From the IMG/VR virus record IMGVR_UViG_3300021255_004328: a stretch of DNA of 64,000 nucleotides; one strand, written 5' to 3'. Numbering within the stretch: the stretch's first letter is position 1; each line of letters opens with the position of its first letter. A model generated the notes under the pieces. The model ran no database searches. It saw only the letters and a list, made by a program, of their open reading frames with translations, and was not told where the DNA came from. This document shows, in pieces, positions 11,317 through 56,082 of this stretch. The stretch comes from a virus. Taxonomy: Duplodnaviria > Heunggongvirae > Uroviricota > Caudoviricetes. The position numbers and the translations under genes were made by a program.

Positions 11317-11351
11317 TATAATATAAAAGAGTTTTGATTAAAGTTTATTTG
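11317..11351 (-). promoter_or_regulatory. Family-A promoter, variant -35 ATAAAC
   Basis: The minus-strand sequence is CAAATAAACTTTAATCAAAACTCTTTTATATTATAAA. Confidence 0.5.
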
Positions 11352-12420
11352 TATCGTAAAAATTACAGTTTCCGTGAAAAATACTTTTGAATTCAGCTTC
11401 ACGGTCAAGTTCATCACAATGAGTAACTTCTACTGTAAATCTTTTAATATGATGCATTGCGACTTCTTTTTCACATCTTTGTTTCAAATCTGCCAAATCA
11501 AGATAATCATAGAAGAAGTCGTGTTGCCATTCGTTATATTGATTAACTTCTGTTGACTTATTAAGGTCACAGTCAAGTTTATGTCCAACAAAAGTATCAG
11601 AGCCGTGACGAGTAATATAAGGTCGTGTTACGAAATGAACATTTGCATCTTTCAAATCAATGTATGATGGCAATCCTGTGTTTGAAGGTGTTGCTTCTTT
11701 ATCATCAAAACCTTTATCACCTAAAAGAAGACCTTGTCCATTTTCAATAATAAAGTGTTGTGATTGAAGTTTTGAAGCCAAGTTTAAGAATGACGGGCTA
11801 ACTTTGCAACATTCAAACATTGACATAGAGTCTCTTATGAAATGCTCAATAAGAAAGTCAGAATACCAAGGCGTTCGATATTTTGGGTTGATTTTAATCT
11901 TTCTTACGCCTTCATAATAATCGCGGATCTTTTTAAGAAACTCAACTTGTTCATCGTGAGGACGAGCTGCAAAACTATCAAAGTCCATATACACACCATT
12001 ACGATAACGAAGTACAGTTTCCCAAATGCCCATACCGCAAGAGCCTGTCCACTTTTCTTTTTGCAACATTTGATTTGCCATTATGTCCCAAGGAGTAACC
12101 CACTTACAAGATGCAGAACGACAAGCTATAGGCTCAATACCGTAAACTTTTTTAATTTCTTCTTTTTCATTATTGAACTGAATAGGGTCAAGAATAAAGT
12201 CTGGGCTGAAAAATGTTCGAACACCTAAAGGAGTTGCAGAATTGAAGTGTTTGAAAATATGCTGCTTTCCGTCGTATATTACAGAGTGTCCTCTTTGAGC
12301 GCCGCCATTGCCCATAATAACAAAAGTTTGTCTTGGGTCATACTGCTTTGCAATACGAGCAACTGTGAGGCCTTTTCCTTCATCTCCGTAATTTGCGCCA
12401 ATTACAACATCAATACTCAT
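11338..12420 (-). CDS. adenylosuccinate synthetase family protein, short archaeal/PurZ-like form of 360 aa
   Basis: GANYGDEGKGLTV is the P-loop GDEGKGK motif. GHSV matches the conserved GHT(V/L). It is about 70 aa shorter than bacterial PurA. Confidence 0.75.
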   Translation of the reverse strand: MSIDVVIGANYGDEGKGLTVARIAKQYDPRQTFVIMGNGGAQRGHSVIYDGKQHIFKHFNSATPLGVRTFFSPDFILDPIQFNNEKEEIKKVYGIEPIACRSASCKWVTPWDIMANQMLQKEKWTGSCGMGIWETVLRYRNGVYMDFDSFAARPHDEQVEFLKKIRDYYEGVRKIKINPKYRTPWYSDFLIEHFIRDSMSMFECCKVSPSFLNLASKLQSQHFIIENGQGLLLGDKGFDDKEATPSNTGLPSYIDLKDANVHFVTRPYITRHGSDTFVGHKLDCDLNKSTEVNQYNEWQHDFFYDYLDLADLKQRCEKEVAMHHIKRFTVEVTHCDELDREAEFKSIFHGNCNFYDTNKL

Positions 12421-37670: not shown

Positions 37671-40478
37671 TTATTTGTACCAAACATCCACATCGTGCAT
37701 CTCGTGGAAGAAGCGATTATTGTCGATTGTATGAGGATGAATATGAGAAAAGTAATTAAACTTAAATCTTTTTTCAGGATTAAGAATATGTTCGTAAGCA
37801 GAACGTCTTAAAACCTGTACATCAGGAGATTCATCATCAACAACAATAAAGCCGTCATCACAATAAAGATTAGAGACTTTATAAGGGTCAAGTCCTATAT
37901 CAATTGCAGCTGGGTAATTGCTTTTAATGTTTGTTGGGAACCATATTCTCCAATTATTATTTTGTTTGAATGTGTCCCAGAAAATGTTTGCATAATTAGG
38001 ATTTTCATTTAAGTAAAGATTATCAACATCAGTAAGTTCTTTACAATCAAAGAATACATTATCATTGTTTCCATTAAGCAATAATTTGAGATCCTTTACT
38101 GACTGAAGGCCACTGTCTTTGAATAAGCTATGAATATCTTGAACACTATCTGGGAAATAGAAATAGCCATCTTTTGTAACAGGGTTAACCCAATCTTTTA
38201 TCCGACCGCTGCCTGAATGGAATGTATAATTCTGATAATGCATAGATGAATTCGGCTGCAACCAATTACCTTCAACATCAACAAGATTTTCACAATCAGC
38301 AAAAGCTTCTGCAATTGTTTGAATTCTTTCTGGGAATATCGCTTCCTTAATATGCTTTACTTTTGAGTTTTTGAACACTTTATTGCCATTTAATACTGAA
38401 TGCCAATTCTTAAAGAATGATGGGTCAACAATTCCTGAGTTTTCAAAAGCGCTTTCAGCGTCAGATGTATCAACAATAAAGTCAAAATGAGGATCTTCAA
38501 TGAATGCGCCATCAAAGATATGTTTAGCACTTTCAACAGGCTCATCACCATTTGTAATGGAACCTACAGCAGACTCAAGATTCTTACAATTCATAAATAA
38601 GTTGTCAGCTTTTGATATTTTGTTTCTGTTAAAGTTGATGGACTTAATATAAGGAACATCTTTGAAAGCATCACTTATATCTTGAGGAGGACAATCACTG
38701 TCATTTAAGTAAACATTAAAAGGAACTTGTATTGTTCTTGTGTGGTCAGGGTGATTTGCATCTCCACTCCAATCAGCAACCCAATCAATATAAGACTCAG
38801 CAATATCTTTATTATAAGTGTAAGTTGTCATTTGTGGGCGGTTCCCAGTTTTAGGAGGGTTGTTTGGATTTGCACCTGGAGTCGATGGTCCTCCTTTAGG
38901 TCCGCCTTCTGCATAATATGTACTTACAGGCTGTCCATAGCCGGAATTTGTGAGGCCATTAGTAATGTATGAACGGTCAGGATATGTAAGTTGTATAGGA
39001 ATACTTTCTTTAGCTACAGGGCTGAGAGTCCAATATCCGTAAGTTCTATCTGTTGGGGGATTCCAATTATATTTATCTCTCGTATCATAGTAGGTACTTG
39101 TAATCCACTTTACACTTTTTCCTTGGCCAAGATTATGTCCTAAGTCATATGAGTTCCAATTTTCATCGTGATATGTTGCAGCAAAAACAGGTCCAACATA
39201 TGACTCTTTTGCAATAGTTTTTCTCCAAAAAGTTTCTTGGTGATGGTGAGGAATCCAATATCTTTCTGCAATGTCAACGGGCTTCTTAACATAAGCTGTA
39301 ACATCAAGATTTATAATGTTCAAACGGAAGTTATCATCAGGGTCCCATATAGGAGATATAATATCATTAAGCTTAGGTCCGTTATGTTGTGCATTTAATA
39401 TAACAGATGTTGTAAGTTCGAGTTCTTTATCAACAGTATTTTTGAAGGCAGCAAAATCCCAAATGTCTTTAATGTTATATAAAAGATTTTGAATGCCTTT
39501 TACTTTATCATCATAATTGTCAGTGATAGTAATCTCTGGGTCAGGGTCAGCAGGACGATTTGGGCCCGCTGCATATACTAAAGTTGAGTATTCAGTCTTA
39601 AACTCAGTATTATCAAAATGAAGCTTAATTAAGTTTGAGGCGCTACTATCAAAAAAGTTGATATTTGATTTTATACTTGCGTCTTTGTTTATTGTGTAAT
39701 TATATGTATCAAGTTTATCGTCCAAATTTATAGCATTCAAAACTTTAGGTATGAGATCATTAGGATTGAAGCCTAATGATTTTTGATATGTATAAAGGTC
39801 TTCACTTGTTATTTTCGAAGCAAGAAACTCAGGGAGTGTACCATTATAAGGACAGTCCCAAAAGTATGTTCTGTTTAAGCCATCGTGCCAATCATTTTTA
39901 ACGCCAATTGACATAAGCATTTTTACAACGCCATCGTCTCCAAGACTTTTTGCAAAATGACGGTCGTAACTGAAAATGTAATCACAATTGTTTGCCTGTA
40001 AAAAAGAAGGTGAAATTACATCTTCAAGAAGTTCACAATTTGCAAACATTTCACGAGCATCTGTTAAGTGATTGCTACCTGCAAATCTTACATATTGTAC
40101 TTTGCTTCCTTTGAACATTCTTGCGGCACTGCCTGCCTGCGTGCCTCTTAAAGTTACATACTTAATGTTTTTTGTATCTTTATAAATATCATCTTCTGCT
40201 TTATTAACAATCAAGTCAACTATCGAGTTGCTGCCTTCTATCTCATCTTTAACGCTGTTATCACTTGCATAAATAGGCACAGGAACATCAGGCTTTTCAT
40301 TATAAGCAATATCCAATAAAGACACCAATTCAGGCTTAGCATTATCATATTCATAGCTATCACTGCTGTCAGTAATATCAGATGTAACATTTTGTAAAGT
40401 GTTTTCTTTTAGGTTTACAGTCTCTTCCCCGATTTTATAAATGCCTCTTCCTTTAATTGCTATCGTTAACTGTGCCAT
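37671..40478 (-). CDS. large BspA-type leucine-rich-repeat (LRR_5) protein; candidate tail fibre or receptor-binding protein
   Basis: Repeated F..C..L..V LRR units such as MFANCELLEDV, LFMNCKNLESAVGSI, AFADCENLVDV and FFDCKELTDV. Confidence 0.55.
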   Translation of the reverse strand: MAQLTIAIKGRGIYKIGEETVNLKENTLQNVTSDITDSSDSYEYDNAKPELVSLLDIAYNEKPDVPVPIYASDNSVKDEIEGSNSIVDLIVNKAEDDIYKDTKNIKYVTLRGTQAGSAARMFKGSKVQYVRFAGSNHLTDAREMFANCELLEDVISPSFLQANNCDYIFSYDRHFAKSLGDDGVVKMLMSIGVKNDWHDGLNRTYFWDCPYNGTLPEFLASKITSEDLYTYQKSLGFNPNDLIPKVLNAINLDDKLDTYNYTINKDASIKSNINFFDSSASNLIKLHFDNTEFKTEYSTLVYAAGPNRPADPDPEITITDNYDDKVKGIQNLLYNIKDIWDFAAFKNTVDKELELTTSVILNAQHNGPKLNDIISPIWDPDDNFRLNIINLDVTAYVKKPVDIAERYWIPHHHQETFWRKTIAKESYVGPVFAATYHDENWNSYDLGHNLGQGKSVKWITSTYYDTRDKYNWNPPTDRTYGYWTLSPVAKESIPIQLTYPDRSYITNGLTNSGYGQPVSTYYAEGGPKGGPSTPGANPNNPPKTGNRPQMTTYTYNKDIAESYIDWVADWSGDANHPDHTRTIQVPFNVYLNDSDCPPQDISDAFKDVPYIKSINFNRNKISKADNLFMNCKNLESAVGSITNGDEPVESAKHIFDGAFIEDPHFDFIVDTSDAESAFENSGIVDPSFFKNWHSVLNGNKVFKNSKVKHIKEAIFPERIQTIAEAFADCENLVDVEGNWLQPNSSMHYQNYTFHSGSGRIKDWVNPVTKDGYFYFPDSVQDIHSLFKDSGLQSVKDLKLLLNGNNDNVFFDCKELTDVDNLYLNENPNYANIFWDTFKQNNNWRIWFPTNIKSNYPAAIDIGLDPYKVSNLYCDDGFIVVDDESPDVQVLRRSAYEHILNPEKRFKFNYFSHIHPHTIDNNRFFHEMHDVDVWYK

Positions 40479-43118: not shown

Positions 43119-43862
43119 TTAAAGACTCCTTAAGTCATTGATGATTGTCTTGGCATCTTTAGGAGAAATGATTTTGAAGTAATCTTGATACTTAGACCAA
43201 TTCTTATCTCTTATAAAGAAATCAGCTTGAATGTCAGAATAAAAATAAATGTTATGAATAGGACAACCATAAAAAGTTGAAGAATAAATTTTTGGCGGCA
43301 AAATTCTTTCAACGAAAATGTCAGTCAAAAGCATACTTCCTTCAAAAGCTTTTTTACCAATCATCTCTAAAGGATTTTGTATTTTGATAAATCTTAAACT
43401 TGAAGTTTGAAAAGCTTCATCTTCAATATGTTCAACTTCATTTAAGTTGATTGTTTTTAGATTAAGACACCCTGCGAAACAGCTGTTTGGAATGTTTTTG
43501 ATATTGCTTGGGATGTCGATTGTTTCAAGACCTGAATATGCAAATGAACTTTCTGATAAGTTTGCAACATTTGAAAAATTGAAGTTCTTTAATCGTGAAC
43601 AAAAAGAAAAAGCTTCCTTCGCAATAATTTCAGGAAACCCATCAAAACGTATTAAATTTTTACAATTCGCAAAAGCTCTTTCACCAATAATTTTTGTTTG
43701 CTCACCACATATCACACAGGATAAGCCGACTGAGCCTTCAAAACTTCTGGGCATAATGTTTCCATCGTAACCCATCATTTCGGCTACATAGAAAACATCA
43801 TCAATCTTGCGACACTTTTTAATGTCTTTTTCTTTTTCAACTTTTATTGTTTTTGTATTCAT
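43119..43862 (-). CDS. BspA-type LRR protein
   Basis: The segments AFANCKNLIRF, AFSFCSRLKNF and CFAGCLNLKTINL. Confidence 0.65.
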   Translation of the reverse strand: MNTKTIKVEKEKDIKKCRKIDDVFYVAEMMGYDGNIMPRSFEGSVGLSCVICGEQTKIIGERAFANCKNLIRFDGFPEIIAKEAFSFCSRLKNFNFSNVANLSESSFAYSGLETIDIPSNIKNIPNSCFAGCLNLKTINLNEVEHIEDEAFQTSSLRFIKIQNPLEMIGKKAFEGSMLLTDIFVERILPPKIYSSTFYGCPIHNIYFYSDIQADFFIRDKNWSKYQDYFKIISPKDAKTIINDLRSL

Positions 43863-45125: not shown

Positions 45126-48100
45126 TTAAGCTCCTAAACCACTCATAATTTGAGCAAAGTCACCGTTATTTGGCATAATGTCTGTTTGGTCTTCAATAAT
45201 AGGCCACATAGCATAAGCCGAAGCTCCAACTAAAGCAACTGGGTTATCTTTTGTTGATACGCCTTCCATACCGATGCTTCCGTCTGTTACCATTTCAAGT
45301 GAGAGTTGAGAACGATAACCGATTGCTCTTGGTAAAGCACTCTGAACAGGAACAATCCAATAATCGGCAGATTGCTTTGCTCCACAAAGAAGTGCTTGTG
45401 GATCTTTTTCGCCACTTGCAGTTAAGTCTTTGAGAGCAGAAGTATTAACGCCGCCGTAGTAATTGAAAAGGATTTGATTATCTTCAGCCATCTTACTCCA
45501 ATCAATGTTCCACTTTGCATCATCATAGCCGTATGTGATATATGGGCCATTTGGATTTTGAAGTTTCTTTGCAGCATTATCTTCATCACGGTGCTTTTCA
45601 ACTGAATACAATTTATAAACGCCATCTTCAGGTTTAACTGCGTACTTAATCTTACCTTTTCTGATTGCCCAGCCGTTTTCATTCCAAGTTTCATCAGCAG
45701 CAAGTTTATCGCCATTTGCTTTATTCTTGAAAGTGCCGTCTCTTTTCTTTACAAAAGATATTGGCTGAACAGGAACAACTCTTTCGTCAGTGCGTTTGAG
45801 TGTACCATCTTTAAGCTTTTCTTGACAAGCCAAGTATCTTTCATAAGAAACATATTGAACCTTAACATAAACAGTTTTAATTCTATCAGGCTCAAGTTCT
45901 GCATTTGAACCTGCAGCTTGCTTTTTAAGAACATCTGCTTTCATAGCAAGTGTATTTTGTATTTCATAGAAAGAAACATCAATCTTTGAAGACTTGCCTT
46001 GGAATGCAGTCATATCAACAGTACCTGCAGATGCAACAGCCGAACCTACAACTTGAGGTAACATCTTTTCAAGGTGACGGCACATCCACAAAGTACCATC
46101 TTGTTTGTTACATCTCTTGTTGATAAAGTATCTTCTTGCTTCATACAAAACATTGAGGTAAGCAAGTAAGAATCTTTCAGGCTCTTCATTTGCTTTCAAA
46201 TCAATAAATTCATTTACTGACTTCCAAGCGGTGTTCATACTGTTATAAGAATATGAACCCATATCCATATAAAGATAAGGCTCAAGCAAACGCTCCACTT
46301 TAAGAATTGTTTCTTTTCTTTGGTCAAGTACCAATCCTAAGTCATCGTGTAATCTTTGATTTTCTGAAGGACTGTTACAGAACCATTCACGGGCAATTTT
46401 TATCCAAGGGTTGTAACCATAAATGTCTTCACACCAAGATGCTTTGATACAACCTGCAGGAAGACTTCCGTCACCGCTAAGAGAACTTTGAGAACCTGTC
46501 TTTTCGTTGATAATTATATCACCATTAGGGTCTGCAATATAATTCTTTTTTGGGTCAGCAAGATAATATGTTCTTGGTGATATAAGCCCAGGTGACTTCG
46601 CAGTGCCTTCAATCATTTTACGAATAAAGTCAAATGAAACAATGTACTGACCGTGTTCATCTTTACCACAAATAAAGTCTTTAGCAAAATTGAGGTAACC
46701 TTCTTGTGTTGCGAGAATGTTGTATAAGAATCTTGGTGCAATATCAAAAGAAGTAAAGTAATACTTCAATGCAGACCAAGCGTTCTTCAAATAAACAGTA
46801 TCTACGATGTCGTGATTTTCTGTGTACTCAACACCATTCTTTGTCAATGTTACTAAACGCTTAACTGTTGTGTAAGTTCTGATGTCACTTGCTCTAATCT
46901 TAAATGAACCTGCTGCTGACTGAACAGTACATCCTCGAGATTCAATATGTGTAAGAGCATCAGCAAAACTTTTACCTTCAACATCAATTCCATATTGAAG
47001 AACCTTAAAGTTTACTCTTAAAGGACCGTTTGCGTCACCACGATAGAATGTGTTTCTCAATCCCATATTGAGAATCATTGCGTGCCACCAATTAGGAGGT
47101 GTTATTTCTCTATAAATGGCAAAACCGTTTCCTTCAGGACGATAAGTGTTTCCGTTGATTGTAACTTCACCTTTGTTTATCCATCCTGCAATCTGCCACA
47201 TTGGGAATCTTATATTTTTGAAAGCAACATCCATCCAAGAGCCGCCATTCATATCAGCAGCTTTTTGTTTAGAGCAACATTTATTTGAATAAACTTCTGC
47301 GCCATCATCTGCCTCAAAGTCAAGGCCTGGGATGTCACCGATAATACCTACGCCTGAGATACCGTTGTAAGATGCAATCATACGGTCTGAACCTACAATG
47401 CCGTCTCTTACAATAGATGTATCAAATAACGGAATTTCTCTTCCTGATATTCCTGTTATAAGGTCGTAAGGTGTCTTTCTCGTTTCACTACAGTTTGTGC
47501 CTGTGTAGCCTGCGCCCATTACAGAAAGAATTGAGTTATTTGCTGTTTCTTTAGTTACGTTTCCATCAATAGGAGGTGATGATACACCGATAGACTCTTC
47601 ACCGTTATTTACAGAACCATAGTTTGTAAATGTTGGCTTTGAAAGTCCTGCCCAGAATCTGTCAGTTGAGTACAACTTAACAGACATATATGTTTTCCAA
47701 CCGCAGTGTCTTTCCCACCAATACTTTCGCTTGTTTGAAGAGTATGTTCTTGAGTGTAAACAGAAGTAATAAACAGGCTTTTGATTATGATATATTTCAG
47801 CACGGAATAAACAGTCAGGACGTCCTTGTCCATCTCTTGTTAAGAAGAATGCTTTATTGTGCGCGCCGACCATACCGCCCCACCAGTCAACAATACTTGT
47901 CATTATATTGTGTTCAGCATTGGTCTGATGAACATCCAATACTTGCCAAGTAGCTTCATTAAGAATGCCCCATTGAGAATAATTGCCGCCTTGAGGTCCG
48001 TCTACAAATAATTCGTAGTCTTCATTTGGCTGCGTTGCAAATAAGTATGCATAATCTCTTGAGTAACCGAACAATGCTCTATAAGAATTATTCCAAGCGT

Positions 48101-51032
48101 TCTTAAATACTTTATTTGAGTAGTTAGGCAAGTAAGACTCATAGTGTCTTGTTTGAACAATTCTCCAAGGTGCGTTAGGCTCTGAATGGAGAACATATCT
48201 TTTGAATGTTGTAAATTTCCATTCATAGTGCCAAGCTCTTTGGCAAGGCGCATAATAAGATACTCTTAAACGCCAACCCCACCGACTGCCTGTCCATTCC
48301 CAGTGATAGTACCAAGAGAAGTTGTAATATCTGTTCCAATAATAATCATACCAACCGTGATTCCAACAGCCATACCACCACCAACTTGAAGTCAAGCCAA
48401 GGTCTTTGTGGAACCATTGCCACCAACCATAGCCTTCGTAATGATATGGCTCGCCGTTTGAGTAATATGATGGACGAACCCATCTCCATTCCCACCAACC
48501 CCAGTACCAATAATTCCAGCCCCAGTGCCATTGAAGCTGTGCATAGAACTCAACATCATTGTAAACTTTTACACGAAGATACGCAGGAACTTCACCTGTG
48601 CTGTGATGTCCTTTCTTAAGTCTTGCAAGTCCTGCTGACCAAGATTGCTCATAGGCTTGTCTTTCACCGTTTGCAACAGCTGAAACATTTGAACACCACT
48701 TTTCGTTTCCTTTATAGTAATAATTGTCTTGATGATTTGGAACTGATGGCCAAGTAATGCCGCCATCTGCATCGTGATTGAAGTTGTCAGGACATTTATC
48801 AATACGAGGAACATTTCTTAAGAAAATGTTGTTTTCCTGATAGTAAGACTGATATGATTTTGGTGAACGGTAATAAGAGTGAGGGCCGCCAAAAAGAGTT
48901 GGGTTATACTGAGGAACACCAACGCCGTTTGAATTGTCTACAAGTTTTTTATCAGTGCCTAATAAGTATGCGTGTTCAGCGCCTTCATCGAGAGCATCGT
49001 TTGAACTTGCTGCCTTTGTTGCGCCAATAGAGTCTTGAATTGCGCCATACGCATTCTTTTGGTTAATACTTCCGTCGCCATTTGCGCCAGCTTTTGAAAG
49101 TGCAGAGCTCTTTGAAGAGTCTTTTTTATTGAACATATTTAAGAATGTCAATGCACCTTTGAAAACTGAGCCTGGGCAGTACTTGTTACCACCCGAACCT
49201 TCTTCTGGGTCATTGAAAGAATAACCTGTGTTCTGACCATTACCTGAAGCATCATTACCACCAACTACCATATCGTAGCCATCATAAGGCTCGCCATTTC
49301 CGCCTACTTGATAATTGATTACCTGAACATCTTCGATTAAGTCTCTTTTATGATAAAGTCCAATACTTGTTTGTAAGAAAAGAATATCAATATCTGAGAA
49401 GCCATCATCTTCTGATGTGTATAATGTTTTCCAAATTTTACCGCCATAGTTCCATTCTTTATAACCTGAAAGAGCAGCACCTTCAAAGTCTTGGAACATC
49501 AATCTGTTCTGAACAGAGTCGCCTCTTATTCTTCCGTGATTGTCTTTTCCTTCCAAGTAATTACGCAAACCTGCTTTTGCGATTCTGTAATAATTAGGAA
49601 CATAAGCAGTTGCACCGTCAGGAGCAGTAATCTTATCAAGCCAACCTGACATAGCTGTTGGGTCAGGATATAATGTATGCCATTGTGAATAAGGATAAGC
49701 ATTGATTATCCAAGACTTATGATTGTCTCCATATATTTTTGAGATGGCACAGTTGATAACACCCCAAGATGCAGCTCTATCATCGGGCTGTCCGCTTGTT
49801 TCCCAACCATAATGATTTGGATTGTCTTTGTCCAAACGGTGAGTCAACATTATGATGTTAGGTAATGTACTTTCAGTGTTTGTTACCAAGCCTTCCTGAA
49901 GATACATTGAAAGATCCCACTCTGTAAGGTATGTTGAAACAATACCTGACATACCTTCAAGAACCCACTGCAACATATTGATGTTATCATTGATTGCCTT
50001 AAACCCAGGTGCACGATATGTAAAAGAAGAACGAGCAGCAAGTCCGTTGCTCATATCATAAGTATCATAGTATTTATTTTCTTCGTTTTTGATTGCAAGG
50101 CGAGTGTCTTCTGCCTCAGTTACAGTTACCTCTTTTCCATCTTTACGCAATTCTTCATTCTTTGCGTTAAGCTCTTCTTGTCTTTTGTTCTTTGCTTGCT
50201 CGAGGTAATCTTTCATTGTCATTGTACTTACAGAAGATGTCTCACCCTGAGACTTTTTGTAATACAATTTGCCATCAGTGCCTCTGTATTTAATACGCTG
50301 TCCCGATGCATCAAGAAGGTAACCGTTGTTATCAACTTCAAGGCCTGTTTCTTTATCGTACTTTTTTGTGCTTATACCTTTCCAAGAAGTTGGCTTTATA
50401 TTTAATGGCGCATAAGGAGGGAACCAAATAACAGAATAATATTCTGACTTATCTTTAAGAGATGTGCCTTCCCATTCTTTATAATCAACTTTTGAATTAA
50501 AAAGAGCACGAGTTCTTAAACGGCCGTACTCATCTGTTTGATTATTTACAGTCCCAGGCTTTGCTTTACCTGTAACTTCACCAAGACGATACTTTGCATC
50601 AGTTTCGCCTACAGGAGATATATACATATCATAAAAGTTTTGAATAACTTGTAAAGCAGCTTGAGTATTTATCTGATTGTTGAGCTTTTCACCTGCATCA
50701 TCGCCAAGAGATCTTAATGTCCAACCTTTGAGGTCAAGGTAAGAAGCAAGTTCTGCACTGTCTTCACCTGCTTTTTGCAAATTCAAAAATTCAGATAATG
50801 TCCATTCGTTCTTACCGTTTGCAACCGCACCTGTGCCATTTGTATCAGTAATAGGAACATTCACATAATTCCCATACTGATCTTTTACTGTACTGAAGCG
50901 TGGATTTTTTCCAGCCGCATCATACATCTTTTTGAAAAAGTTTTCGTTTACTATAGCCTTTTGTTCGATTGCACCTGTGAGAGATGTCCAATCTGTTGCG
51001 GTACCGTCAAAAAAAGTATCTAATCTCATCAA
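45126..51032 (-). CDS. giant virion protein of 1968 aa containing an extremely Trp/Tyr-rich segment
   Basis: A 5.9-kb ORF. Roughly residues 833-945 (nt 48200-48540) contain about 25 Trp and about 20 Tyr in 112 aa. Confidence 0.6.
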   Translation of the reverse strand: MMRLDTFFDGTATDWTSLTGAIEQKAIVNENFFKKMYDAAGKNPRFSTVKDQYGNYVNVPITDTNGTGAVANGKNEWTLSEFLNLQKAGEDSAELASYLDLKGWTLRSLGDDAGEKLNNQINTQAALQVIQNFYDMYISPVGETDAKYRLGEVTGKAKPGTVNNQTDEYGRLRTRALFNSKVDYKEWEGTSLKDKSEYYSVIWFPPYAPLNIKPTSWKGISTKKYDKETGLEVDNNGYLLDASGQRIKYRGTDGKLYYKKSQGETSSVSTMTMKDYLEQAKNKRQEELNAKNEELRKDGKEVTVTEAEDTRLAIKNEENKYYDTYDMSNGLAARSSFTYRAPGFKAINDNINMLQWVLEGMSGIVSTYLTEWDLSMYLQEGLVTNTESTLPNIIMLTHRLDKDNPNHYGWETSGQPDDRAASWGVINCAISKIYGDNHKSWIINAYPYSQWHTLYPDPTAMSGWLDKITAPDGATAYVPNYYRIAKAGLRNYLEGKDNHGRIRGDSVQNRLMFQDFEGAALSGYKEWNYGGKIWKTLYTSEDDGFSDIDILFLQTSIGLYHKRDLIEDVQVINYQVGGNGEPYDGYDMVVGGNDASGNGQNTGYSFNDPEEGSGGNKYCPGSVFKGALTFLNMFNKKDSSKSSALSKAGANGDGSINQKNAYGAIQDSIGATKAASSNDALDEGAEHAYLLGTDKKLVDNSNGVGVPQYNPTLFGGPHSYYRSPKSYQSYYQENNIFLRNVPRIDKCPDNFNHDADGGITWPSVPNHQDNYYYKGNEKWCSNVSAVANGERQAYEQSWSAGLARLKKGHHSTGEVPAYLRVKVYNDVEFYAQLQWHWGWNYWYWGWWEWRWVRPSYYSNGEPYHYEGYGWWQWFHKDLGLTSSWWWYGCWNHGWYDYYWNRYYNFSWYYHWEWTGSRWGWRLRVSYYAPCQRAWHYEWKFTTFKRYVLHSEPNAPWRIVQTRHYESYLPNYSNKVFKNAWNNSYRALFGYSRDYAYLFATQPNEDYELFVDGPQGGNYSQWGILNEATWQVLDVHQTNAEHNIMTSIVDWWGGMVGAHNKAFFLTRDGQGRPDCLFRAEIYHNQKPVYYFCLHSRTYSSNKRKYWWERHCGWKTYMSVKLYSTDRFWAGLSKPTFTNYGSVNNGEESIGVSSPPIDGNVTKETANNSILSVMGAGYTGTNCSETRKTPYDLITGISGREIPLFDTSIVRDGIVGSDRMIASYNGISGVGIIGDIPGLDFEADDGAEVYSNKCCSKQKAADMNGGSWMDVAFKNIRFPMWQIAGWINKGEVTINGNTYRPEGNGFAIYREITPPNWWHAMILNMGLRNTFYRGDANGPLRVNFKVLQYGIDVEGKSFADALTHIESRGCTVQSAAGSFKIRASDIRTYTTVKRLVTLTKNGVEYTENHDIVDTVYLKNAWSALKYYFTSFDIAPRFLYNILATQEGYLNFAKDFICGKDEHGQYIVSFDFIRKMIEGTAKSPGLISPRTYYLADPKKNYIADPNGDIIINEKTGSQSSLSGDGSLPAGCIKASWCEDIYGYNPWIKIAREWFCNSPSENQRLHDDLGLVLDQRKETILKVERLLEPYLYMDMGSYSYNSMNTAWKSVNEFIDLKANEEPERFLLAYLNVLYEARRYFINKRCNKQDGTLWMCRHLEKMLPQVVGSAVASAGTVDMTAFQGKSSKIDVSFYEIQNTLAMKADVLKKQAAGSNAELEPDRIKTVYVKVQYVSYERYLACQEKLKDGTLKRTDERVVPVQPISFVKKRDGTFKNKANGDKLAADETWNENGWAIRKGKIKYAVKPEDGVYKLYSVEKHRDEDNAAKKLQNPNGPYITYGYDDAKWNIDWSKMAEDNQILFNYYGGVNTSALKDLTASGEKDPQALLCGAKQSADYWIVPVQSALPRAIGYRSQLSLEMVTDGSIGMEGVSTKDNPVALVGASAYAMWPIIEDQTDIMPNNGDFAQIMSGLGA

Positions 51033-51057: not shown

Positions 51058-52545
51058 TTATTTTACACTGAAAGGACCTAAGAATGAAGCAAGGTCGTTA
51101 AGTTTCTGTTGAACACCTGTCTTATCTTCAGTATCAACTTCTTTAACTGCATTCTTTGTATTATCGACAACCTTTTTAGTGCTGTTAAGAACATTATTGA
51201 TTTTACTCTTAATACCCTGTGGGAGAGCTTTTGACATAAGATTTTGAAGTCCCGCGCCAGTAATGCCTTCGCCACCAAATAATTTTTGATTGAGTGCTTC
51301 TTTACCCTGATTCCAAGAATCTTCTTCTGCCCAAGACTTAACTGCATTTTTCCAGTTTTCAGCGCCTTGCTCAAACTTATCTTTATCAAATGCGTCAGCA
51401 AGTTCTTTTCCTAAAGCCTGTCCTTGATTTGCAAAACTAATAACTGCTGACTTTGTTGAACTGATTGAACTTGAAATGCCTGAAAGAATTTCATTTATTT
51501 GGTCAAGAATTGACTGTACTTGTTCTGTTTTACAATCAAGTTCCAACATATTCCAAAGCATCTGTAATATCTCACCAATTGCAGTAATAAGTAAAGCAGC
51601 AATCTTTTCTGCAACCATTTGAATAACTTGTCCTGCAGCAGGAGGGTTAATCCAACATTGTGCAGCAAATGTTATCATCTTTACGATAGGAACAACAATT
51701 GTAAGAATTAAGAGAAGAACTTTCTTAAGAACATTTACAACTTTTAATATCGCAAGAATTGCAGATAATATAGGCAATTCTTTAGTGATACATTCGATAA
51801 CTTCTTTTTCTCTTTCGGCAGCAGCAGCGTCTCTGTTAGCGTTTGTTTCACCAACTGAATCATCAGCTGCCTCAGCGGCGCTTTTCTTTTTTGCTTCACC
51901 GCCACCTGCTCCATCATCTTCATCGTTATCATCATCACTGTTCCCGTCAGAATTAAGTGATGCATTGATACCTTTTTTCAAATCATCAAGAAGATTGCTT
52001 TGGTCATCAAACTCTTCATCACCATCTTCGTCAAAGTCATCACACCCAGGGTTATATAATTGTGTTAAGTCGCCACCGCCTCCTGGGAATGGCCCAGGCC
52101 CCGGCTGAGGAGGAGAAACTGCGAGAACATTTATAAGAATACCTTCAAGTTCACCTACCAAAAAATCAACTTGAGTATCAAGCCCACCACCTGGGAGTAA
52201 TAAGTGGGAGTCAGTTGGGTCACCACCCAAACTTAACTTCATTGCAAGTTCGTTTGCATTTACTTCAGGATTTGGGTCAGGTCCTAAACCTGCGCCTGAG
52301 GATTCAGTTTTGAAGTCATCATTATCAATCTTTTCAGGAACTTTATATTTTGGCAGAGATGTTGCCATTGCGTGAAGTTCACGAAGACGATTTGCAATCT
52401 TTTCCATAATTGCATCTTCTTCAGACTCCAGCTCTTCGAGATTAGTTTTTGAAATTTCTCTTTTTGGGTTTAAGTCAGAATCACCGAACTCATAATCGGA
52501 ACCCAAGTAACGGTCATATACTTTTTTAAGAAATTCTTCTGCCAT
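51058..52545 (-). CDS. acidic Gly/Pro-rich protein with a central hydrophobic membrane segment; candidate internal virion, ejection or tape-measure-like protein
   Basis: The PGPGPFPGGGGD stretch, poly-Asp stretches, and the hydrophobic ILSAILAILKVVNVL...IVVPIV segment. Confidence 0.45.
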   Translation of the reverse strand: MAEEFLKKVYDRYLGSDYEFGDSDLNPKREISKTNLEELESEEDAIMEKIANRLRELHAMATSLPKYKVPEKIDNDDFKTESSGAGLGPDPNPEVNANELAMKLSLGGDPTDSHLLLPGGGLDTQVDFLVGELEGILINVLAVSPPQPGPGPFPGGGGDLTQLYNPGCDDFDEDGDEEFDDQSNLLDDLKKGINASLNSDGNSDDDNDEDDGAGGGEAKKKSAAEAADDSVGETNANRDAAAAEREKEVIECITKELPILSAILAILKVVNVLKKVLLLILTIVVPIVKMITFAAQCWINPPAAGQVIQMVAEKIAALLITAIGEILQMLWNMLELDCKTEQVQSILDQINEILSGISSSISSTKSAVISFANQGQALGKELADAFDKDKFEQGAENWKNAVKSWAEEDSWNQGKEALNQKLFGGEGITGAGLQNLMSKALPQGIKSKINNVLNSTKKVVDNTKNAVKEVDTEDKTGVQQKLNDLASFLGPFSVK

Positions 52546-54002: not shown

Positions 54003-55283
54003 TTATTTCATAAACTTGTTGAACCCGCTTGGGATTGATTTCTTCGGCTTTGTTTTTGCCTCAGAACAGAAGTCTTGGTCAACATTCTGTGTTTCCGCAA
54101 TGTTAAGTTTTCCTTCAAGGAACTTCTTAACTTCATTACAGTAATACTGTGCTGTACATACAGGAACATTCTGACCAATCATACCCATTTTCTGTTTAGG
54201 TACTTCTGGGAAGTCATCAGGTAAAGCCATCAACCTCATACATTCACGGATTGAATAACCACGCTCTTCAACTGGGTGCCAAATACGACCCATAGAACGA
54301 CCATACAAAGAAGGAAGCTTGTGTGTACCAAAGTAAAGTGGAGCGCCTGACATCCAACCTTTGCCCTGAGCTTTCTTTGAGATGAAGTAATCAATATCAT
54401 CTTTGTCTTTCTGTCTGTCAAAGAACTGCTTTGCGTATGCAAGTTCACCGCATTCATCAGCGCAGAAGTCAGCAGCAGCGTTGTGCTTTGCCCATTCTTC
54501 GCGGTATTTATCACCCCACTTGTGCTTAAGATACTTTATCCAACCATCATCGCCTGAGCGAACCTGACAAGCGCCTTGCTGTTTTGGCAAGTCACCAATG
54601 ATGTCCATAATTGCAGGGATAGGAGCAGGTCCATCATATTCAAGATAAGGAGCATTACTGTCCTTTACGCAAATCATAAATGTACGAGTTCTGTTCTGTG
54701 GGAGACCGTGATGCAAAGTATTTACTTTTACAAGGTTGACACCATAGCCTGCTTCATTTGCCATTTTTGTAAGCTTTTCCTTGATACCTGCTCCAAGAGG
54801 AGTTGCAAGTTTGTAAGCATTTTCAAAAATGTAAACTTTAGGCTTCAAGTACTTCAAAACATTTGAAAGCATACCCAACATATTGTTGTTCTGAACTGCA
54901 TCAGAACCACGACCCATTTTTGAGTTGCTGCCTGACTGGGTATTTGCTGAAGAAAGTCCTGCACAGATAGGAACACCTACAACAACATCGAGATCCTTGA
55001 ATTCAGGCATATCCCAATTCCAAACAACTTTTTCATTACCCTCTTCATCAACTTCAGGTTTGAAATCTTCAGCAAGAGAATAAGCTCCACCGTTCAAATA
55101 AAAGTGTTTAAGATTGTTGCCTTTTACCTCGTTCATATAATTGAGATACAGTTCGGAATTTGCAACACCGTCATAGTCAAGAACTGCAGTAGGCGGACAA
55201 CCAAAAGCATTTTCTGCACCGATGGCGCAACCTCCTATCAATGGTTGGTACGCCAACCAACGAATTTCATTTGTTTTACTCAT
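54003..55283 (-). CDS. DNA (cytosine-5)-methyltransferase-fold protein
   Basis: GVPICAGLS is a PCQ-like motif IV. FENAYKL is an ENV-like motif VI. GLPQNRTRTFMI is motif VIII (QxRxR). The start was chosen at 55283. Confidence 0.65.
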   Translation of the reverse strand: MSKTNEIRWLAYQPLIGGCAIGAENAFGCPPTAVLDYDGVANSELYLNYMNEVKGNNLKHFYLNGGAYSLAEDFKPEVDEEGNEKVVWNWDMPEFKDLDVVVGVPICAGLSSANTQSGSNSKMGRGSDAVQNNNMLGMLSNVLKYLKPKVYIFENAYKLATPLGAGIKEKLTKMANEAGYGVNLVKVNTLHHGLPQNRTRTFMICVKDSNAPYLEYDGPAPIPAIMDIIGDLPKQQGACQVRSGDDGWIKYLKHKWGDKYREEWAKHNAAADFCADECGELAYAKQFFDRQKDKDDIDYFISKKAQGKGWMSGAPLYFGTHKLPSLYGRSMGRIWHPVEERGYSIRECMRLMALPDDFPEVPKQKMGMIGQNVPVCTAQYYCNEVKKFLEGKLNIAETQNVDQDFCSEAKTKPKKSIPSGFNKFMK

Positions 55284-56082
55284 ATTTCCAAAAATCTCCA
55301 TTTAAATCACATTTATTATTTTCAATACAACTTTTTATACGTTGTCTTGTAATGCCAGTTAATTTTTCAGCATTTAGCAAACTTGGATATTTAATGTTTT
55401 TTGTTACATTTATAATCACTTTGCCTGTTGAATGCTGCATTCTCAATTTTTGCTTTGTTTCATCTGATACTTTATGTCCTTTTCTCATCAAGGACATCTT
55501 TTTCTTAGTTTCTTCCGAGTGCTTTTTGCCTTTGTTAATATCAGAAAGATGTTGTATAATTTCAGGATGCTTTTTATATGTTTCTTTTAATGATTGACTG
55601 ATTTTATCAGCATACTCTTTTTGATTATATGAGCCATTTACTTTTCGTGTTTGTACACCTTTTAAATAATAATCTTTACTTCTTTTTTGGCTTAATTCTT
55701 TTGAAAGCTTAGACTTTACATCTGACAGCTCTTTTTTAAGTTTTTCATATAATCGAGAATTAACATAATTTTCCAAATCGTCTCTCTGATATTGCATTCT
55801 ATGAAAAGCAAACAACATTTTATAATGTGCATCACCTGAATTATAAATTTTACATAATAAATAATGCGCAAGATAATGTTCTCTTGCAGTAAGTAAAACT
55901 TTATTGTCTGCATCATCTTTCTTTTCTGGAAAGATTGATTTTGGCAATATATGGTGTTCTTCATAATACACATAATTAGGGTCGCTCTTTCGTCTCTTTA
56001 CCCTATTAAGAGATTTAACATAGGAGATATAATCATAATAATTTTTTTCATAGTTCATATTATTTAGTATGAACATCTGCAT
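55276..56082 (-). CDS. HNH homing endonuclease with C-terminal NUMOD3-type DNA-binding repeats
   Basis: EEHHILPKS...N...REHYLAH is the HNH motif. HSEETKKKMS and VSDETKQKL are NUMOD3 repeats. Confidence 0.75.
   Translation of the reverse strand: MQMFILNNMNYEKNYYDYISYVKSLNRVKRRKSDPNYVYYEEHHILPKSIFPEKKDDADNKVLLTAREHYLAHYLLCKIYNSGDAHYKMLFAFHRMQYQRDDLENYVNSRLYEKLKKELSDVKSKLSKELSQKRSKDYYLKGVQTRKVNGSYNQKEYADKISQSLKETYKKHPEIIQHLSDINKGKKHSEETKKKMSLMRKGHKVSDETKQKLRMQHSTGKVIINVTKNIKYPSLLNAEKLTGITRQRIKSCIENNKCDLNGDFWKYE

What the first reader, a model, noticed from the sequence alone, without database searches (positions are those of the whole stretch)
48200..48540. About 110-aa segment with roughly 22% tryptophan and 18% tyrosine inside the 1968-aa virion protein
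The segment ...LQWHWGWNYWYWGWWEWRWVRPSYY...GYGWWQWFHKDLGLTSSWWWYGCWNHGWYDYYWNRYYNFSWYYHWEWTGSRWGWRLRVSYY... is an extreme aromatic cluster. There is no obvious internal DNA-level repeat. Such composition is very rare. It could form a carbohydrate- or membrane-interacting face such as a cell-wall binding or penetration device, or an aromatic-zipper oligomerisation element in a tail or injected protein.
Basis: seen in the sequence. Interest (0 to 1): 0.6.

Follow-up and report, generated by a model that had tools for sequence, protein, structure and literature searches.

The report
Tryptophan-packed beta-sheet in giant phage protein
A 95-residue stretch that is one-quarter tryptophan is a real, selected and probably folded part of a 1,967-residue protein of an uncultivated 300-kb gut phage; the protein resembles nothing known, and the stretch most likely forms a sticky aromatic contact surface, though its target is unproven.

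Summary
Residues 833-927 of the minus-strand ORF 45126-51032 (window 48252-48536) contain 23 Trp (24%) and 17 Tyr (18%), against 2.5% Trp in the rest of the protein (binomial P 2e-16). There is no DNA repeat.

It is not an artefact. Nine independently assembled near-identical copies keep 23-24 Trp, and dN/dS against a 93%-identical relative is 0.11.

AlphaFold2 (pLDDT 80) places the stretch in a beta-rich domain (residues ~798-1126) with strands up to 29 residues. Eleven of 13 strand Trp lie on the sheet face that is hydrophobic across relatives. The rest sit in a hairpin tip, a loop and a short helix. No Pfam, PHROG, NCBIfam, PDB or BFVD relative was found by sequence or fold.

The domain occurs only in about 90 clusters of 1,400-2,400-residue proteins on 150-580-kb contigs. 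Trp density there is patchy (4-24 per 95 residues) and has been gained and lost repeatedly.

The gene is paired with an upstream gene encoding hydrophobic helices in 11 of 13 genomes. In one genome the pair follows a tail-tube gene.

Best reading (0.4): an accessory aromatic contact surface of a tail-module protein that engages the host envelope. A purely structural aromatic core or zipper is nearly as likely.

The parts
45126..51029 (-). Gene for the giant protein: 1967 aa from the ATG at 51029, with the stop codon at 45126-45128. The ORF listing extends it one codon further, to a TTG at 51032.
   Evidence: The exact 1967-aa product is on record on a 301-kb ENA scaffold and on an NCBI contig.
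48252..48536 (-). Aromatic segment, residues 833-927: 23 W and 17 Y in 95 aa.
   Evidence: dN/dS is 0.109 against the 93%-identical relative. Nine independent assemblies keep 23-24 W.
48480..48530 (-). First Trp cluster, WHWGWNYWYWGWWEWRW (residues 835-851). It forms the predicted beta-hairpin tip (strands 830-836 and 846-852, loop 837-845). This is the lineage-specific part: it is gapped or replaced in many relatives.
   Evidence: The most favourable Wimley-White interfacial 19-mer of the protein starts at residue 829 (-15.5 kcal/mol).
48414..48425 (-). WWQW (residues 870-873), at the start of predicted strand 870-878. These Trp are conserved in 12-14 of the 16 nearer relatives.
48336..48383 (-). 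WWWYGCWNHGWYDYYW (residues 884-899). It comprises a low-confidence loop (879-892) and the start of a short aromatic helix (893-901). W890 is present in 16 of 16 nearer relatives.
   Evidence: This holds the second most favourable interfacial 19-mer, at residue 884 (-13.0 kcal/mol).
48273..48314 (-). WYYHWEWTGSRWGW (residues 907-920). It is the hairpin between strand 904-913 and the 29-residue strand 918-946. Its Trp lie on the face that is hydrophobic across relatives.
47655..48641 (-). Beta-rich domain (residues ~798-1126) that contains the aromatic segment. The AlphaFold2 model has mean pLDDT 80.2 and pTM 0.60. No fold relative was found.
48804..48920 (-). Conserved motif block GVPQYNPxLYGGPHxYYxSP...LRNxPR (residues 705-743). 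It holds family-invariant G, P, GGPH, P and R residues immediately N-terminal of the domain. It was predicted with low confidence.
48963..49265 (-). G/S/N/A-rich linker of low confidence (residues 590-690) that separates the conserved N-terminal region from the central domain.
51058..52545 (-). Upstream partner gene (495 aa): an acidic, Gly-rich N-terminal half, conserved hydrophobic helices, and a helical C-terminal half. A homologue sits directly upstream of the giant gene in 11 of 13 genomic contexts.
   Evidence: The orthologue in L003 gives weak PHROG hits to baseplate hub (6e-4) and tape measure (6e-3).
51646..51801 (-). Hydrophobic, transmembrane-like helices of the partner protein (residues 249-300). 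This is the best-conserved part of that protein.

Best explanation
The segment is a folded, lineage-variable aromatic sub-structure of a beta-rich domain with no detectable relatives. The domain lies in the middle of a giant, family-restricted protein of an uncultivated ~300-kb jumbo phage from the human gut, whose host is probably a member of the Clostridia.

Long amphipathic beta-strands place Trp and Tyr on one face of the sheet. Additional Trp crowd a hairpin tip, a loop and a short helix. Together they make a large aromatic patch with very favourable interfacial hydrophobicity.

I infer that this patch is a contact ('sticky') surface with which a tail-module protein engages the host envelope during adsorption or penetration. 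The target would be the membrane interface or wall polymers. The protein would act together with the product of the conserved upstream gene, which carries transmembrane-like helices.

What is shown: the composition, purifying selection, reproducible assembly, the predicted fold with its strand pattern, restriction to one family, patchy gain and loss, and the conserved gene pair.

What is inferred: exposure of the patch, virion or tail location, and the identity of the target.
For: The segment is real and constrained.
- Nine independent assemblies keep 23-24 W.
- dN/dS is 0.109 in the segment at dS 0.49, and 23 of 24 W positions are conserved against the 93%-identical relative.
- W has a single codon, TGG, in a window of 34-41% GC. 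Mutational bias therefore works against W; this last step is inference.

The segment is probably folded.
- The focused AlphaFold2 model has mean pLDDT 80.2, with five models at 76-80. Most 10-residue blocks of the segment score 69-95, and one loop scores 55.
- The structure is strands and hairpins, with tips at residues 837-845 and 914-917.
- Eleven of the 13 strand W sit on the face that is hydrophobic in 17 relatives (hydrophobic fraction 0.50-0.80 on that face, 0.18-0.44 on the other).

The segment is accessory and labile, as surface or host-contact features usually are.
- The first cluster is an indel-rich hairpin tip.
- A 73%-identical relative has a maximum of only 10 W per 95 residues, and other relatives have 6-7.
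- W-rich members are interleaved with W-poor ones across the family tree.
- Other lineages carry W-runs at different loops of the same domain. P0034 has four G/W/R-rich stretches that look like loops rather than core.
- Across the family, the domain averages 4.1% W against 1.85% in the rest of the proteins.

Interfacial propensity is extreme.
- The 19-mers starting at residues 829 and 884 score -15.5 and -13.0 kcal/mol on the Wimley-White scale. The protein mean is +3.1 with sd 4.2.

Genomic context points to a tail module and a Gram-positive-type host.
- A partner gene with hydrophobic helices lies directly upstream in 11 of 13 genomes.
- In L009 the gene order is tail tube (phrog_45, E 4e-15), a 252-aa gene, the partner, then the giant.
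- The L003 partner orthologue gives weak tape-measure and hub hits.
- A PmgG-like head-morphogenesis gene lies in the same block in L003.
- A 306-kb contig carrying a 90%-identical giant gene is binned in a Clostridia MAG.
Against: No coordinates were available, so solvent exposure of the Trp could not be measured.

Most strand Trp sit on the hydrophobic face, and in relatives they often exchange with Y, F, I, L or V. That is also what a buried core or a subunit interface predicts.

No carbohydrate-binding, cell-wall-binding or membrane-attack family matches by sequence or fold.

The tail assignment rests on one recognisable tail gene in one of 13 contexts, plus weak hits. Inside the window the neighbours are DNA-metabolism genes, and no structural gene was recognised.

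The predicted structure comes from a 42-sequence alignment and is unverified.
Confidence: 0.4

Rival explanations
1. The role is purely structural. The Trp and Tyr are the hydrophobic core, or a cross-strand 'tryptophan zipper' or Trp-Arg ladder, that rigidifies unusually long beta-ribbons or glues identical subunits together in an oligomer. There is no external ligand.
For: - Eleven of 13 strand W lie on the face that is hydrophobic across relatives.
- Several W columns are well conserved (870, 871, 873, 884-886, 890, 918, 934, 938) or exchange with Y, F, I, L or V.
- The segment has only 6 aliphatic residues, so aromatic residues must supply most of the packing.
- High pLDDT suggests a well-packed unit.
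- W-x-W alternation with R and E on the other face resembles the designed trpzip hairpins and the Trp-Arg ladders of thrombospondin repeats and WSXWS motifs. That comparison is from my own knowledge.
Against: - A core would be expected to be stable in evolution. Instead, a 73%-identical relative lacks most of the first cluster, and Trp density swings between 6 and 24 per 95 residues among related proteins.
- Trp runs appear in different loops in different lineages, including G/W-rich low-complexity stretches that are unlikely to be core.
- One 9-residue helix and one loop are too small to cover the aromatic sheet face. This is inference.
Confidence: 0.3
2. The protein is not a virion component. 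With its membrane-helix partner it acts inside the infected cell, for example as a membrane-associated scaffold or host-takeover factor. The aromatic patch would then dock it onto the inner face of the membrane or onto another protein.
For: - In the window the gene sits among a C5 methylase, a homing endonuclease, a DinG-type helicase, an AAA ATPase and nucleotide-metabolism genes.
- No structural gene was recognised in 64 kb.
- Relatives have RIIA, PIF1 helicase, chaperonin and 5'-3' exonuclease genes nearby.
- The N-terminal region has many invariant polar residues (R149, R340, K345, D373, Q379), which could indicate an enzyme.
Against: - The order tail tube, one gene, partner, giant in L009.
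- Weak tape-measure and hub hits for the partner, and a PmgG-like morphogenesis gene in the same block.
- Jumbo phages commonly scatter their structural genes. This is from my own knowledge.
- No enzymatic family was detected in 23 diverse members.
Confidence: 0.15
3. The composition arose by neutral drift. The stretch is a tolerated filler loop that happened to accumulate Trp and has no specific role.
For: The feature is dispensable in close relatives and highly variable across the family.
Against: - dN/dS is 0.11, and 23 of 24 W are conserved at dS 0.49.
- All W are kept in nine independent genomes, while 11 non-W positions vary.
- W has one codon in an AT-rich genome.
- Independent enrichment in many lineages of the same domain points to selection.
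- The segment is predicted to be folded, not disordered.
Confidence: 0.1
4. It is an artefact: a frameshift, a misassembly or a wrong reading frame.
For: None was found.
Against: - The frame is continuous, with conserved motifs on both sides (EQSWSAGLxRLKxGxH upstream, FKRYVLHSEP downstream) in 40 or more relatives.
- The identical protein occurs on a 301-kb ENA scaffold and on an NCBI contig. The 90% cluster has 62 members from NCBI, ENA, JGI, MGnify and Logan.
- The synonymous excess is typical of coding sequence.
Confidence: 0.01

Closest known systems
Trp-rich membrane-anchoring loops at the tips of beta-sandwich domains, for example the undecapeptide ECTGLAWEWWR of cholesterol-dependent cytolysin domain 4 and the fusion loops of class II viral fusion proteins (own knowledge)
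   Same: Aromatic and Gly-rich loops at the ends of beta-hairpins, with strong interfacial hydrophobicity. They belong to proteins that attack or cross a membrane.
Trp-rich interfacial segments of viral entry proteins (HIV-1 gp41 MPER, coronavirus S2 pre-transmembrane region) and Trp/Arg-rich membrane-active peptides (indolicidin, tritrpticin, the puroindoline Trp-rich domain) (own knowledge)
   Same: Very high Trp density, and partitioning into the membrane interface. W is combined with R, G and H, as in the query and even more so in relative P0034.
   Different: Those segments are short (13-25 aa), helical or extended peptides. The MPER lies next to a transmembrane anchor. Here the segment is a folded beta sub-structure inside a 1,967-aa protein with no transmembrane segment of its own.
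Aromatic-rich cell-wall and carbohydrate-binding repeats (choline-binding repeats PF01473, ChW, GW modules, CBMs) (own knowledge for their properties)
   Same: W-, Y- and G-rich beta-hairpins that bind wall polymers. Such modules are common as accessory parts of phage and Gram-positive surface proteins. The likely host is a Clostridia member.
   Different: There is no Pfam hit in the query, in 18 domain fragments or in 23 diverse full-length relatives. There is no internal repeat unit. Aromatic density is far higher than in a typical binding platform.
Tryptophan-zipper hairpins and Trp-Arg ladders (designed trpzip peptides, thrombospondin type-1 repeats, the cytokine-receptor WSXWS motif) (own knowledge)
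   Same: W at alternating positions on one strand face, with R and E on the other, in elongated beta structures that lack a conventional aliphatic core.
Giant tail-tip or baseplate proteins encoded next to the tape-measure gene of tailed phages (Tal or gp27-like hub proteins; phiKZ gp181-type giant tail proteins) (own knowledge)
   Same: Size class and, in one relative, gene position downstream of a tail tube gene and a protein with hydrophobic helices. The domains are accessory and lineage-variable.
   Different: No hub, lysin or fibre domain was detected by sequence or fold. There was no tblastn match in 50,697 GenBank phage genomes. Virion location is untested.

Membership tests
Aromatic cell-wall / carbohydrate-binding repeat families (CW_binding_1, ChW, GW/SH3-like, CBMs) | A significant match to the family profile HMM | tested here: not met
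   Pfam gave 0 families for the whole protein at E<=1, 0 relevant families for 18 domain fragments at E<=1, and 0 relevant families for 23 diverse full-length relatives.
Aromatic cell-wall / carbohydrate-binding repeat families (CW_binding_1, ChW, GW/SH3-like, CBMs) | Tandem copies of a 20-60-residue repeat unit | tested here: not met
   There is no tandem repeat at the DNA level and only 12-17-nt chance matches. No periodic unit is visible in the peptide.
Aromatic cell-wall / carbohydrate-binding repeat families (CW_binding_1, ChW, GW/SH3-like, CBMs) | Binding to wall polymers or glycans | not testable with these tools
   This needs purified domain and binding assays.
CDC / MACPF-type membrane-binding and pore-forming proteins | The MACPF/CDC fold, or a domain-4-like beta-sandwich | tested here: not met
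CDC / MACPF-type membrane-binding and pore-forming proteins | The conserved Trp-rich undecapeptide ECTGLAWEWWR | tested here: not met
   It is not present in the translated sequence.
Phage tail-tip / baseplate hub proteins (gp27/gpD-like, Tal) | A gene in the tail module, downstream of the tail tube, chaperone and tape-measure genes | tested here: inconclusive
   L009 has tail tube (phrog_45, E 4e-15), a 252-aa gene, the partner, then the giant. The partner lies upstream in 11 of 13 contexts, but its tape-measure and hub hits are weak (E 6e-3 and 6e-4). No tail gene was recognised in the window itself.
Phage tail-tip / baseplate hub proteins (gp27/gpD-like, Tal) | A gp27/gpD-like hub fold, or a recognisable lysin or fibre domain | tested here: inconclusive
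   The N-terminal 700 residues were modelled mostly below pLDDT 50, so the lack of Foldseek hits is uninformative there. There are no Pfam or PHROG hits.
Phage tail-tip / baseplate hub proteins (gp27/gpD-like, Tal) | Presence in purified virions | not testable with these tools
   The phage is uncultivated and no proteome is available.
Giant virion RNA polymerases (crAss-like gp66-type two-barrel enzymes, N4 vRNAP) | An invariant catalytic acidic motif (DxDxD) in a double-psi beta-barrel | tested here: not met
   The invariant columns of 42- and 66-sequence alignments contain no DxDxD-type triad.
Giant virion RNA polymerases (crAss-like gp66-type two-barrel enzymes, N4 vRNAP) | Sequence or fold similarity to solved polymerases | tested here: not met
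   Profile searches of all PDB sequences gave nothing below E 1. Foldseek with residues 2-1200 gave nothing.
Tryptophan zipper / Trp-Arg ladder structural motifs | Trp at alternating positions on one face of paired beta-strands | tested here: met
   The predicted strands show W-x-W alternation, and 11 of 13 strand W lie on the conserved hydrophobic face.
Tryptophan zipper / Trp-Arg ladder structural motifs | Cross-strand Trp-Trp or Trp-Arg stacking in three dimensions | not testable with these tools
   The prediction tool returns only secondary structure and confidence, not coordinates.
Diversity-generating retroelement target (variable region) | A near-identical template repeat and a reverse transcriptase nearby | tested here: not met
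   blastn of 48101-48700 against the whole window found no second copy. The segment is not hypervariable within the 90% cluster.

The most novel reading that the evidence does not exclude
The segment would be the most developed example of a previously undescribed tryptophan-based envelope-anchoring module. In this reading a new beta-sheet fold presents a Trp- and Tyr-lined face and Trp-crowded hairpin tips. It sits at the business end of a giant tail protein shared by a deep clade of uncultivated 150-580-kb phages. It works with a transmembrane-helix partner to dock onto or breach the host envelope. Trp has been accreted convergently at several loops in many lineages as an adaptive, host-specific trait.
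Probability: 0.25. Interest if true: 0.7.

Novelty: new variant of a known kind. Interest (0 to 1): 0.5.

Why it matters
Jumbo phages of gut anaerobes are uncultivated, and most of their large proteins have no assigned function. This family of about 90 clusters at 50% identity is conserved down to about 20% identity across 150-580-kb genomes, so it is likely to be a core component.

The central domain appears to be a new fold. Its hydrophobic face is built largely from tryptophan, and relatives tune the Trp density up and down. If the patch proves to be an envelope-contact surface, it would give a handle on how these phages recognise or penetrate Clostridia-type envelopes. It would also be a natural example of a very large Trp-based interface, of interest for protein design.

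If the patch is only a structural core, it remains an unusual protein-chemistry curiosity with less biological reach.

Tried and rejected
**Known-family assignment.** Pfam, PHROGs and NCBIfam on the giant protein gave nothing. Pfam on 18 domain fragments, and Pfam and PHROGs on 23 diverse relatives, gave nothing relevant.

**GenBank phage relatives.** Megablast and tblastn of the giant protein, of two distant relatives and of the partner against 50,697 phage genomes found no match.

**Solved-structure relatives by sequence.** Profiles of 42 and 66 sequences gave no hit below E 1.

**Giant virion RNA polymerase idea.** I rejected it. The alignments show no invariant acidic triad, and there is no similarity to solved polymerases.

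**Hub and spike lead.** From memory, the neighbouring families fam255 and fam438 in distant relatives resembled a gpV-like spike and a gpD-like hub. This got no support:
- PDB profile searches were empty.
- tblastn against phages was empty.
- None of 31 fam255 homologues carries a Pfam domain.
- hhalign against P2 gpV and gpD gave probability 0.1%.

**Diversity-generating retroelement target.** No template repeat exists in the window.

**Hodor conjugative megaplasmids** (PMC12934698). These have Rep_3, Par proteins, sortases and secreted proteins of more than 7,300 aa. None of the ORFs scanned in the window matched such functions. The giant protein has no hydrophobic (signal-peptide- or TM-like) segment in the hydropathy scan. 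The relatives carry homing endonucleases, RIIA and a tail tube gene.

**Second homologue search.** Searching with the family alignment added no new members.

**Literature.** Searches for tryptophan-rich phage tail or baseplate proteins found nothing relevant.

**Structural genes in the window.** A search of the ORFs upstream of the giant gene recognised none.

Full report
**1. The observation**

The minus-strand ORF 45126..51032 is 1968 codons from a listed TTG. The public gene call starts at the ATG one codon later and gives 1967 aa.

The densest stretch is residues 833-927, window 48252-48536. It is 95 aa with 23 Trp (24.2%), 17 Tyr (17.9%), 10 Gly, 7 Ser, 6 Arg, 5 His and 5 Asn. It has only 6 aliphatic residues and roughly balanced charge.

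The rest of the protein has 2.5% Trp and 6.4% Tyr. That gives binomial probabilities of 1.8e-16 for the Trp count and 1e-4 for the Tyr count. No other open frame of 100 codons or more in the window exceeds 7 Trp per 95 residues.

There is no tandem repeat and no meaningful dispersed repeat. No second copy of the region exists anywhere in the window, which also excludes a template repeat of the diversity-generating-retroelement kind. No ORF on the other strand overlaps the segment.

**2. It is real coding sequence under constraint**

The exact 1967-aa protein is on record on a 301,281-bp ENA scaffold from a human sample and on an NCBI metagenome contig. It belongs to a 62-member cluster at 90% identity drawn from NCBI, ENA, JGI, MGnify and Logan. 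Nine full-length members of that cluster keep 23-24 Trp in the segment.

I compared the gene with the DNA of the 93%-identical relative (L005). The results:

| Region | dN/dS | Notes |
|---|---|---|
| Whole gene | 0.068 | |
| Segment 833-927 | 0.109 | 15.5 synonymous and 12.5 non-synonymous differences; dS 0.49 |

All 23 Trp of the query are kept in that relative, which has one more (R917W). So 23 of the 24 positions that are Trp in either protein are conserved.

Conserved motifs flank the segment in the same frame in all relatives: EQSWSAGLxRLKxGxH upstream and FKRYVLHSEP downstream. Trp has one codon, and the window is 34-41% GC. Composition bias therefore cannot explain the enrichment; this step is inference. 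Frameshift and misassembly are excluded.

**3. What the protein is related to**

No known family matched.
- Pfam, PHROGs and NCBIfam give no family for the giant protein.
- The same holds for 18 domain fragments (Pfam) and 23 diverse full-length relatives (Pfam and PHROGs).
- Megablast of the gene, and tblastn of the giant protein and two distant relatives, find nothing in 50,697 GenBank phage genomes.
- Profiles of 42 and 66 sequences find nothing among all PDB sequences.

Homologues do exist in metagenomes.
- There are 41 clusters at 90% identity, ranging from 93% down to about 22% identity to the query, on contigs of 150-580 kb.
- An exhaustive profile search with the central domain against 1.84 billion representatives found 91 proteins. 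Nearly all are 1,400-2,400 aa, with the domain in the same relative position.
- The domain is therefore confined to this one giant-protein family.

A few clues place the element.
- The window's helicase is closest to that of Bacillus phage G (42% identity) and to other jumbo or huge phages.
- A 306-kb contig carrying a 90%-identical giant gene is binned in a MAG of Candidatus Fimenecus, a genus of Clostridia.
- The Hodor megaplasmids recently described in gut Bacillota differ: they have Rep_3, Par proteins, sortases and secreted proteins of more than 7,300 aa (PMC12934698).

I read the element as a jumbo phage, probably of a Clostridia host. The host call rests on binning only.

**4. Anatomy of the segment**

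An AlphaFold2 model of residues 2-1200 was poor overall, with mean pLDDT 57 and the N-terminal 700 residues mostly below 50. It was confident for residues ~800-1135.

A focused model of residues 790-1140 reached mean pLDDT 80.2 and pTM 0.60, and all five models scored 76-80. Mapped onto the sequence, the domain is an alpha+beta structure dominated by very long antiparallel strands:

| Element | Residues |
|---|---|
| Strands | 812-828, 830-836, 846-852, 870-878, 904-913, 918-946 (29 residues), 956-967, then further strands and helices to about 1126 |
| Irregular stretch 853-869 | high confidence (about 93-95) |
| Hairpin tip 837-845 (WGWNYWYWG) | 10-residue blocks about 69-82 |
| Loop 879-892 (holds WWWYGCW) | pLDDT about 55 |
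| Short aromatic helix 893-901 (GWYDYYWNR) | pLDDT about 75 |

The aromatic segment is thus the distal half of the first part of this sheet.

In four of the five strands, the positions that carry Trp are the ones that are hydrophobic across 17 relatives (hydrophobic fraction 0.53-0.80, against 0.18-0.25 on the other face). Eleven of the 13 strand Trp lie on that face. The other face carries R, E, H, Q, N and S.

No classical transmembrane segment exists in the giant protein. The 19-mers starting at residues 829 and 884 have Wimley-White interfacial free energies of -15.5 and -13.0 kcal/mol, against a protein mean of +3.1 with sd 4.2.

No fold relative was found:
- Foldseek against the PDB had no hit at E <= 0.001; the best was E 0.28.
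- Foldseek against BFVD had no hit at E <= 0.001; the best was E 0.14.

**5. Conservation and lability**

Some Trp positions are conserved in most of the 16 relatives at 49% identity or more. These are residues 849, 870, 871, 873, 884-886, 890 (16 of 16), 918, 934 and 938 (16 of 16, and 7 of 10 in more distant relatives).

Others are specific to the query lineage or lie in an indel-rich hairpin: 835-847, 851, 894, 899, 911 and 913.

Trp density varies widely over short evolutionary distances.
- The 73%-identical relative P0002 replaces the first cluster with NPKWKNRNKIYL and reaches only 10 Trp per 95 residues.
- P0007-9 and P0017-19 have 6-7.
- Across the relatives found, the maximum Trp count per 95 residues runs from 4 to 24 in full-length proteins. 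The query (23) is at the top, together with P0001, P0004 and the distant P0062.
- The domain averages 4.1% Trp and 8.9% Tyr, against 1.85% and 6.0% in the rest of the same proteins.
- In a UPGMA ordering, Trp-rich members are interleaved with Trp-poor ones, and their mutual identity is often only 22-30%.

Other lineages carry Trp runs at other loops of the domain or further downstream. Examples are WWWWWGWGW and WYWNWWWRGWWSWFGW in P0062, and four G/W/R-rich stretches in P0034, including RRRWRWWGWRRWRGWGGWRGWWRR.

The picture is of a conserved beta-domain with a small conserved aromatic core, onto which lineages repeatedly add or remove Trp-rich extensions.

**6. Genomic context**

Inside the window the neighbours are a C5 methylase, a NUMOD3 homing endonuclease, a BspA-type LRR protein and a DinG-type helicase. 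No structural gene was recognised.

The gene directly upstream (51058-52545, 495 aa) has a conserved pair of transmembrane-like helices at residues 249-300. By iterative profile search, a homologue lies directly upstream of the giant gene in 11 of 13 contexts. In one of these only a homing endonuclease separates them.

In the context of relative P0028 (L009), the gene order is tail tube (phrog_45, E 4e-15), a 252-aa gene, the partner, then the giant. The partner's orthologue in L003 gives weak hits to a baseplate-hub family (E 6e-4) and a tape-measure family (E 6e-3). A PmgG-like head-morphogenesis gene lies in the same block.

Four distant relatives share a larger block: fam438, fam255, partner, giant. 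From memory I thought fam255 and fam438 looked like a gpV-type spike and a gpD-type hub. No test supported this.

I put the probability that the giant is a tail-module virion protein at roughly 0.55.

**7. How it most likely works**

Shown:
- An extreme, selected, reproducibly assembled Trp/Tyr segment.
- A confident prediction of long amphipathic strands with Trp on one face and in the tips and loops.
- Very high interfacial hydrophobicity.
- Evolutionary lability, with repeated Trp accretion within one domain.
- A conserved partner with membrane-type helices.

Inferred: the aromatic face and tips form a contact surface that a tail-module protein uses on the host envelope, either at the membrane interface or on wall polymers, in concert with the partner (confidence 0.4). 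The composition (W, Y, G, S, N, R, H) is the kind seen at sugar-binding sites and other generic binding surfaces, and also at membrane interfaces; that comparison is from my own knowledge. I cannot separate the two targets.

The main rival (0.3) is that the Trp simply build the core, or a zipper or subunit interface, of unusually long beta-ribbons. The placement of most strand Trp on the hydrophobic face, and their exchange with Y, F, I, L or V in relatives, fit that equally well. The lability, and the Trp-rich loops elsewhere in the family, fit it less well.

An intracellular, non-virion role (0.15) and neutral drift (0.1) are less likely. An artefact is excluded.

**8. Comparison with known systems and verdict**

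Functionally, the nearest analogues are:
- Trp-rich membrane-anchoring loops on beta-sandwiches (the cholesterol-dependent cytolysin undecapeptide, class II fusion loops).
- Trp-rich interfacial segments of viral entry proteins.
- Aromatic wall-binding repeats.
- On the structural side, tryptophan zippers and Trp-Arg ladders.

Every membership test that could be run for the ligand-binding or pore-forming families failed: HMM match, repeat architecture, fold similarity and signature motif. The only defining feature met is the alternating-Trp strand pattern of zipper-like motifs, and its three-dimensional part is untestable here.

The feature is best described as a new variant of the general kind 'aromatic contact or packing module in a phage structural protein'. 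It sits in a protein family and a fold with no known relatives.

Interest is moderate (0.5). The composition is truly exceptional and the family is a conserved unknown of gut jumbo phages. The function remains unassigned, and a mundane structural explanation is nearly as likely as the interesting one.

Noticed in passing
window 31173-32810 (-): This 545-aa protein matches the flotillin lipid-raft scaffold FloT (NF058507, E 1e-79, below the curated cut-off). A flotillin-like gene in a jumbo-phage genome is unusual.
   Followed up: no
window 11338-12420 (-): This adenylosuccinate-synthetase-like protein matches phrog_1211, the PurZ-type family (E 6e-28). It hints that the phage may make 2-aminoadenine DNA. 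I did not test PurZ against PurA.
   Followed up: no
window 9390-10697 (-) and 21989-23479 (-): These ORFs encode a nicotinamide phosphoribosyltransferase-like protein and a CCA-adding tRNA nucleotidyltransferase. Both are auxiliary metabolism genes typical of very large phages.
   Followed up: no
window 54003-56082 (-); L004 1397-2359: A NUMOD3 homing endonuclease (55276-56082) overlaps the start of a C5 cytosine methylase gene (54003-55301) by 26 nt. In a distant relative, a NUMOD3 endonuclease is inserted between the partner gene and the giant gene.
   Followed up: partly
window 51058-52545 (-): This 495-aa protein has an acidic, Gly-rich N-terminal half and conserved transmembrane-like helices at residues 249-300. 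A homologue lies directly upstream of the giant gene in 11 of 13 genomes. Weak tape-measure and hub hits occur in one orthologue only.
   Followed up: yes
window 43119-43862 (-) and 37671-40478 (-); L013 16360-17124: BspA-type leucine-rich-repeat (LRR_5) proteins lie a few genes downstream of the giant gene, both in the window and in a distant relative. This may be part of the same conserved neighbourhood.
   Followed up: no
P0034 (distant homologue), residues ~834-1242: P0034 has four separate Trp-rich stretches at sites different from the query's. Their composition is G/W/R-rich and low in complexity, for example RRRWRWWGWRRWRGWGGWRGWWRR and GWGYGWNNGVGWHNGFGWGWGGW.
   Followed up: partly
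L003 6357-8443, L009 3559-5717, L011 1-1807, L013 5986-8165: Two further orphan families, of about 438 aa and about 255 aa, lie upstream of the partner-giant pair in four distant relatives. My recalled resemblance to a gpD-like hub and a gpV-like spike got no support from the PDB profile search, tblastn, Pfam look-up or hhalign against P2.
   Followed up: yes
L010 (JAZNWZ010000130.1, 306 kb) and L011: A 306-kb contig carrying a 90%-identical giant gene is binned in a MAG named Candidatus Fimenecus sp. (Clostridia). A 32%-identical relative sits in a 'Bacillota bacterium' MAG. This is a host hint from binning only.
   Followed up: partly
window 1-64000: Nearly all long ORFs are on the minus strand, and GC skew is negative in all but one 2-kb block (38001-40000, +0.017). 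The whole window looks like a single transcription and replication direction.
   Followed up: no
window 50000-50700 (-), residues ~137-460 of the giant protein: The N-terminal region has the densest set of family-invariant polar residues, for example YRLGEVTG, FPP, FTYRxPGFKAINDNIN, STYLTEWDxSLYxQEG and LTHRxxxDNP. AlphaFold2 nevertheless modelled it with low confidence. It could be an unrecognised active site or assembly interface.
   Followed up: partly
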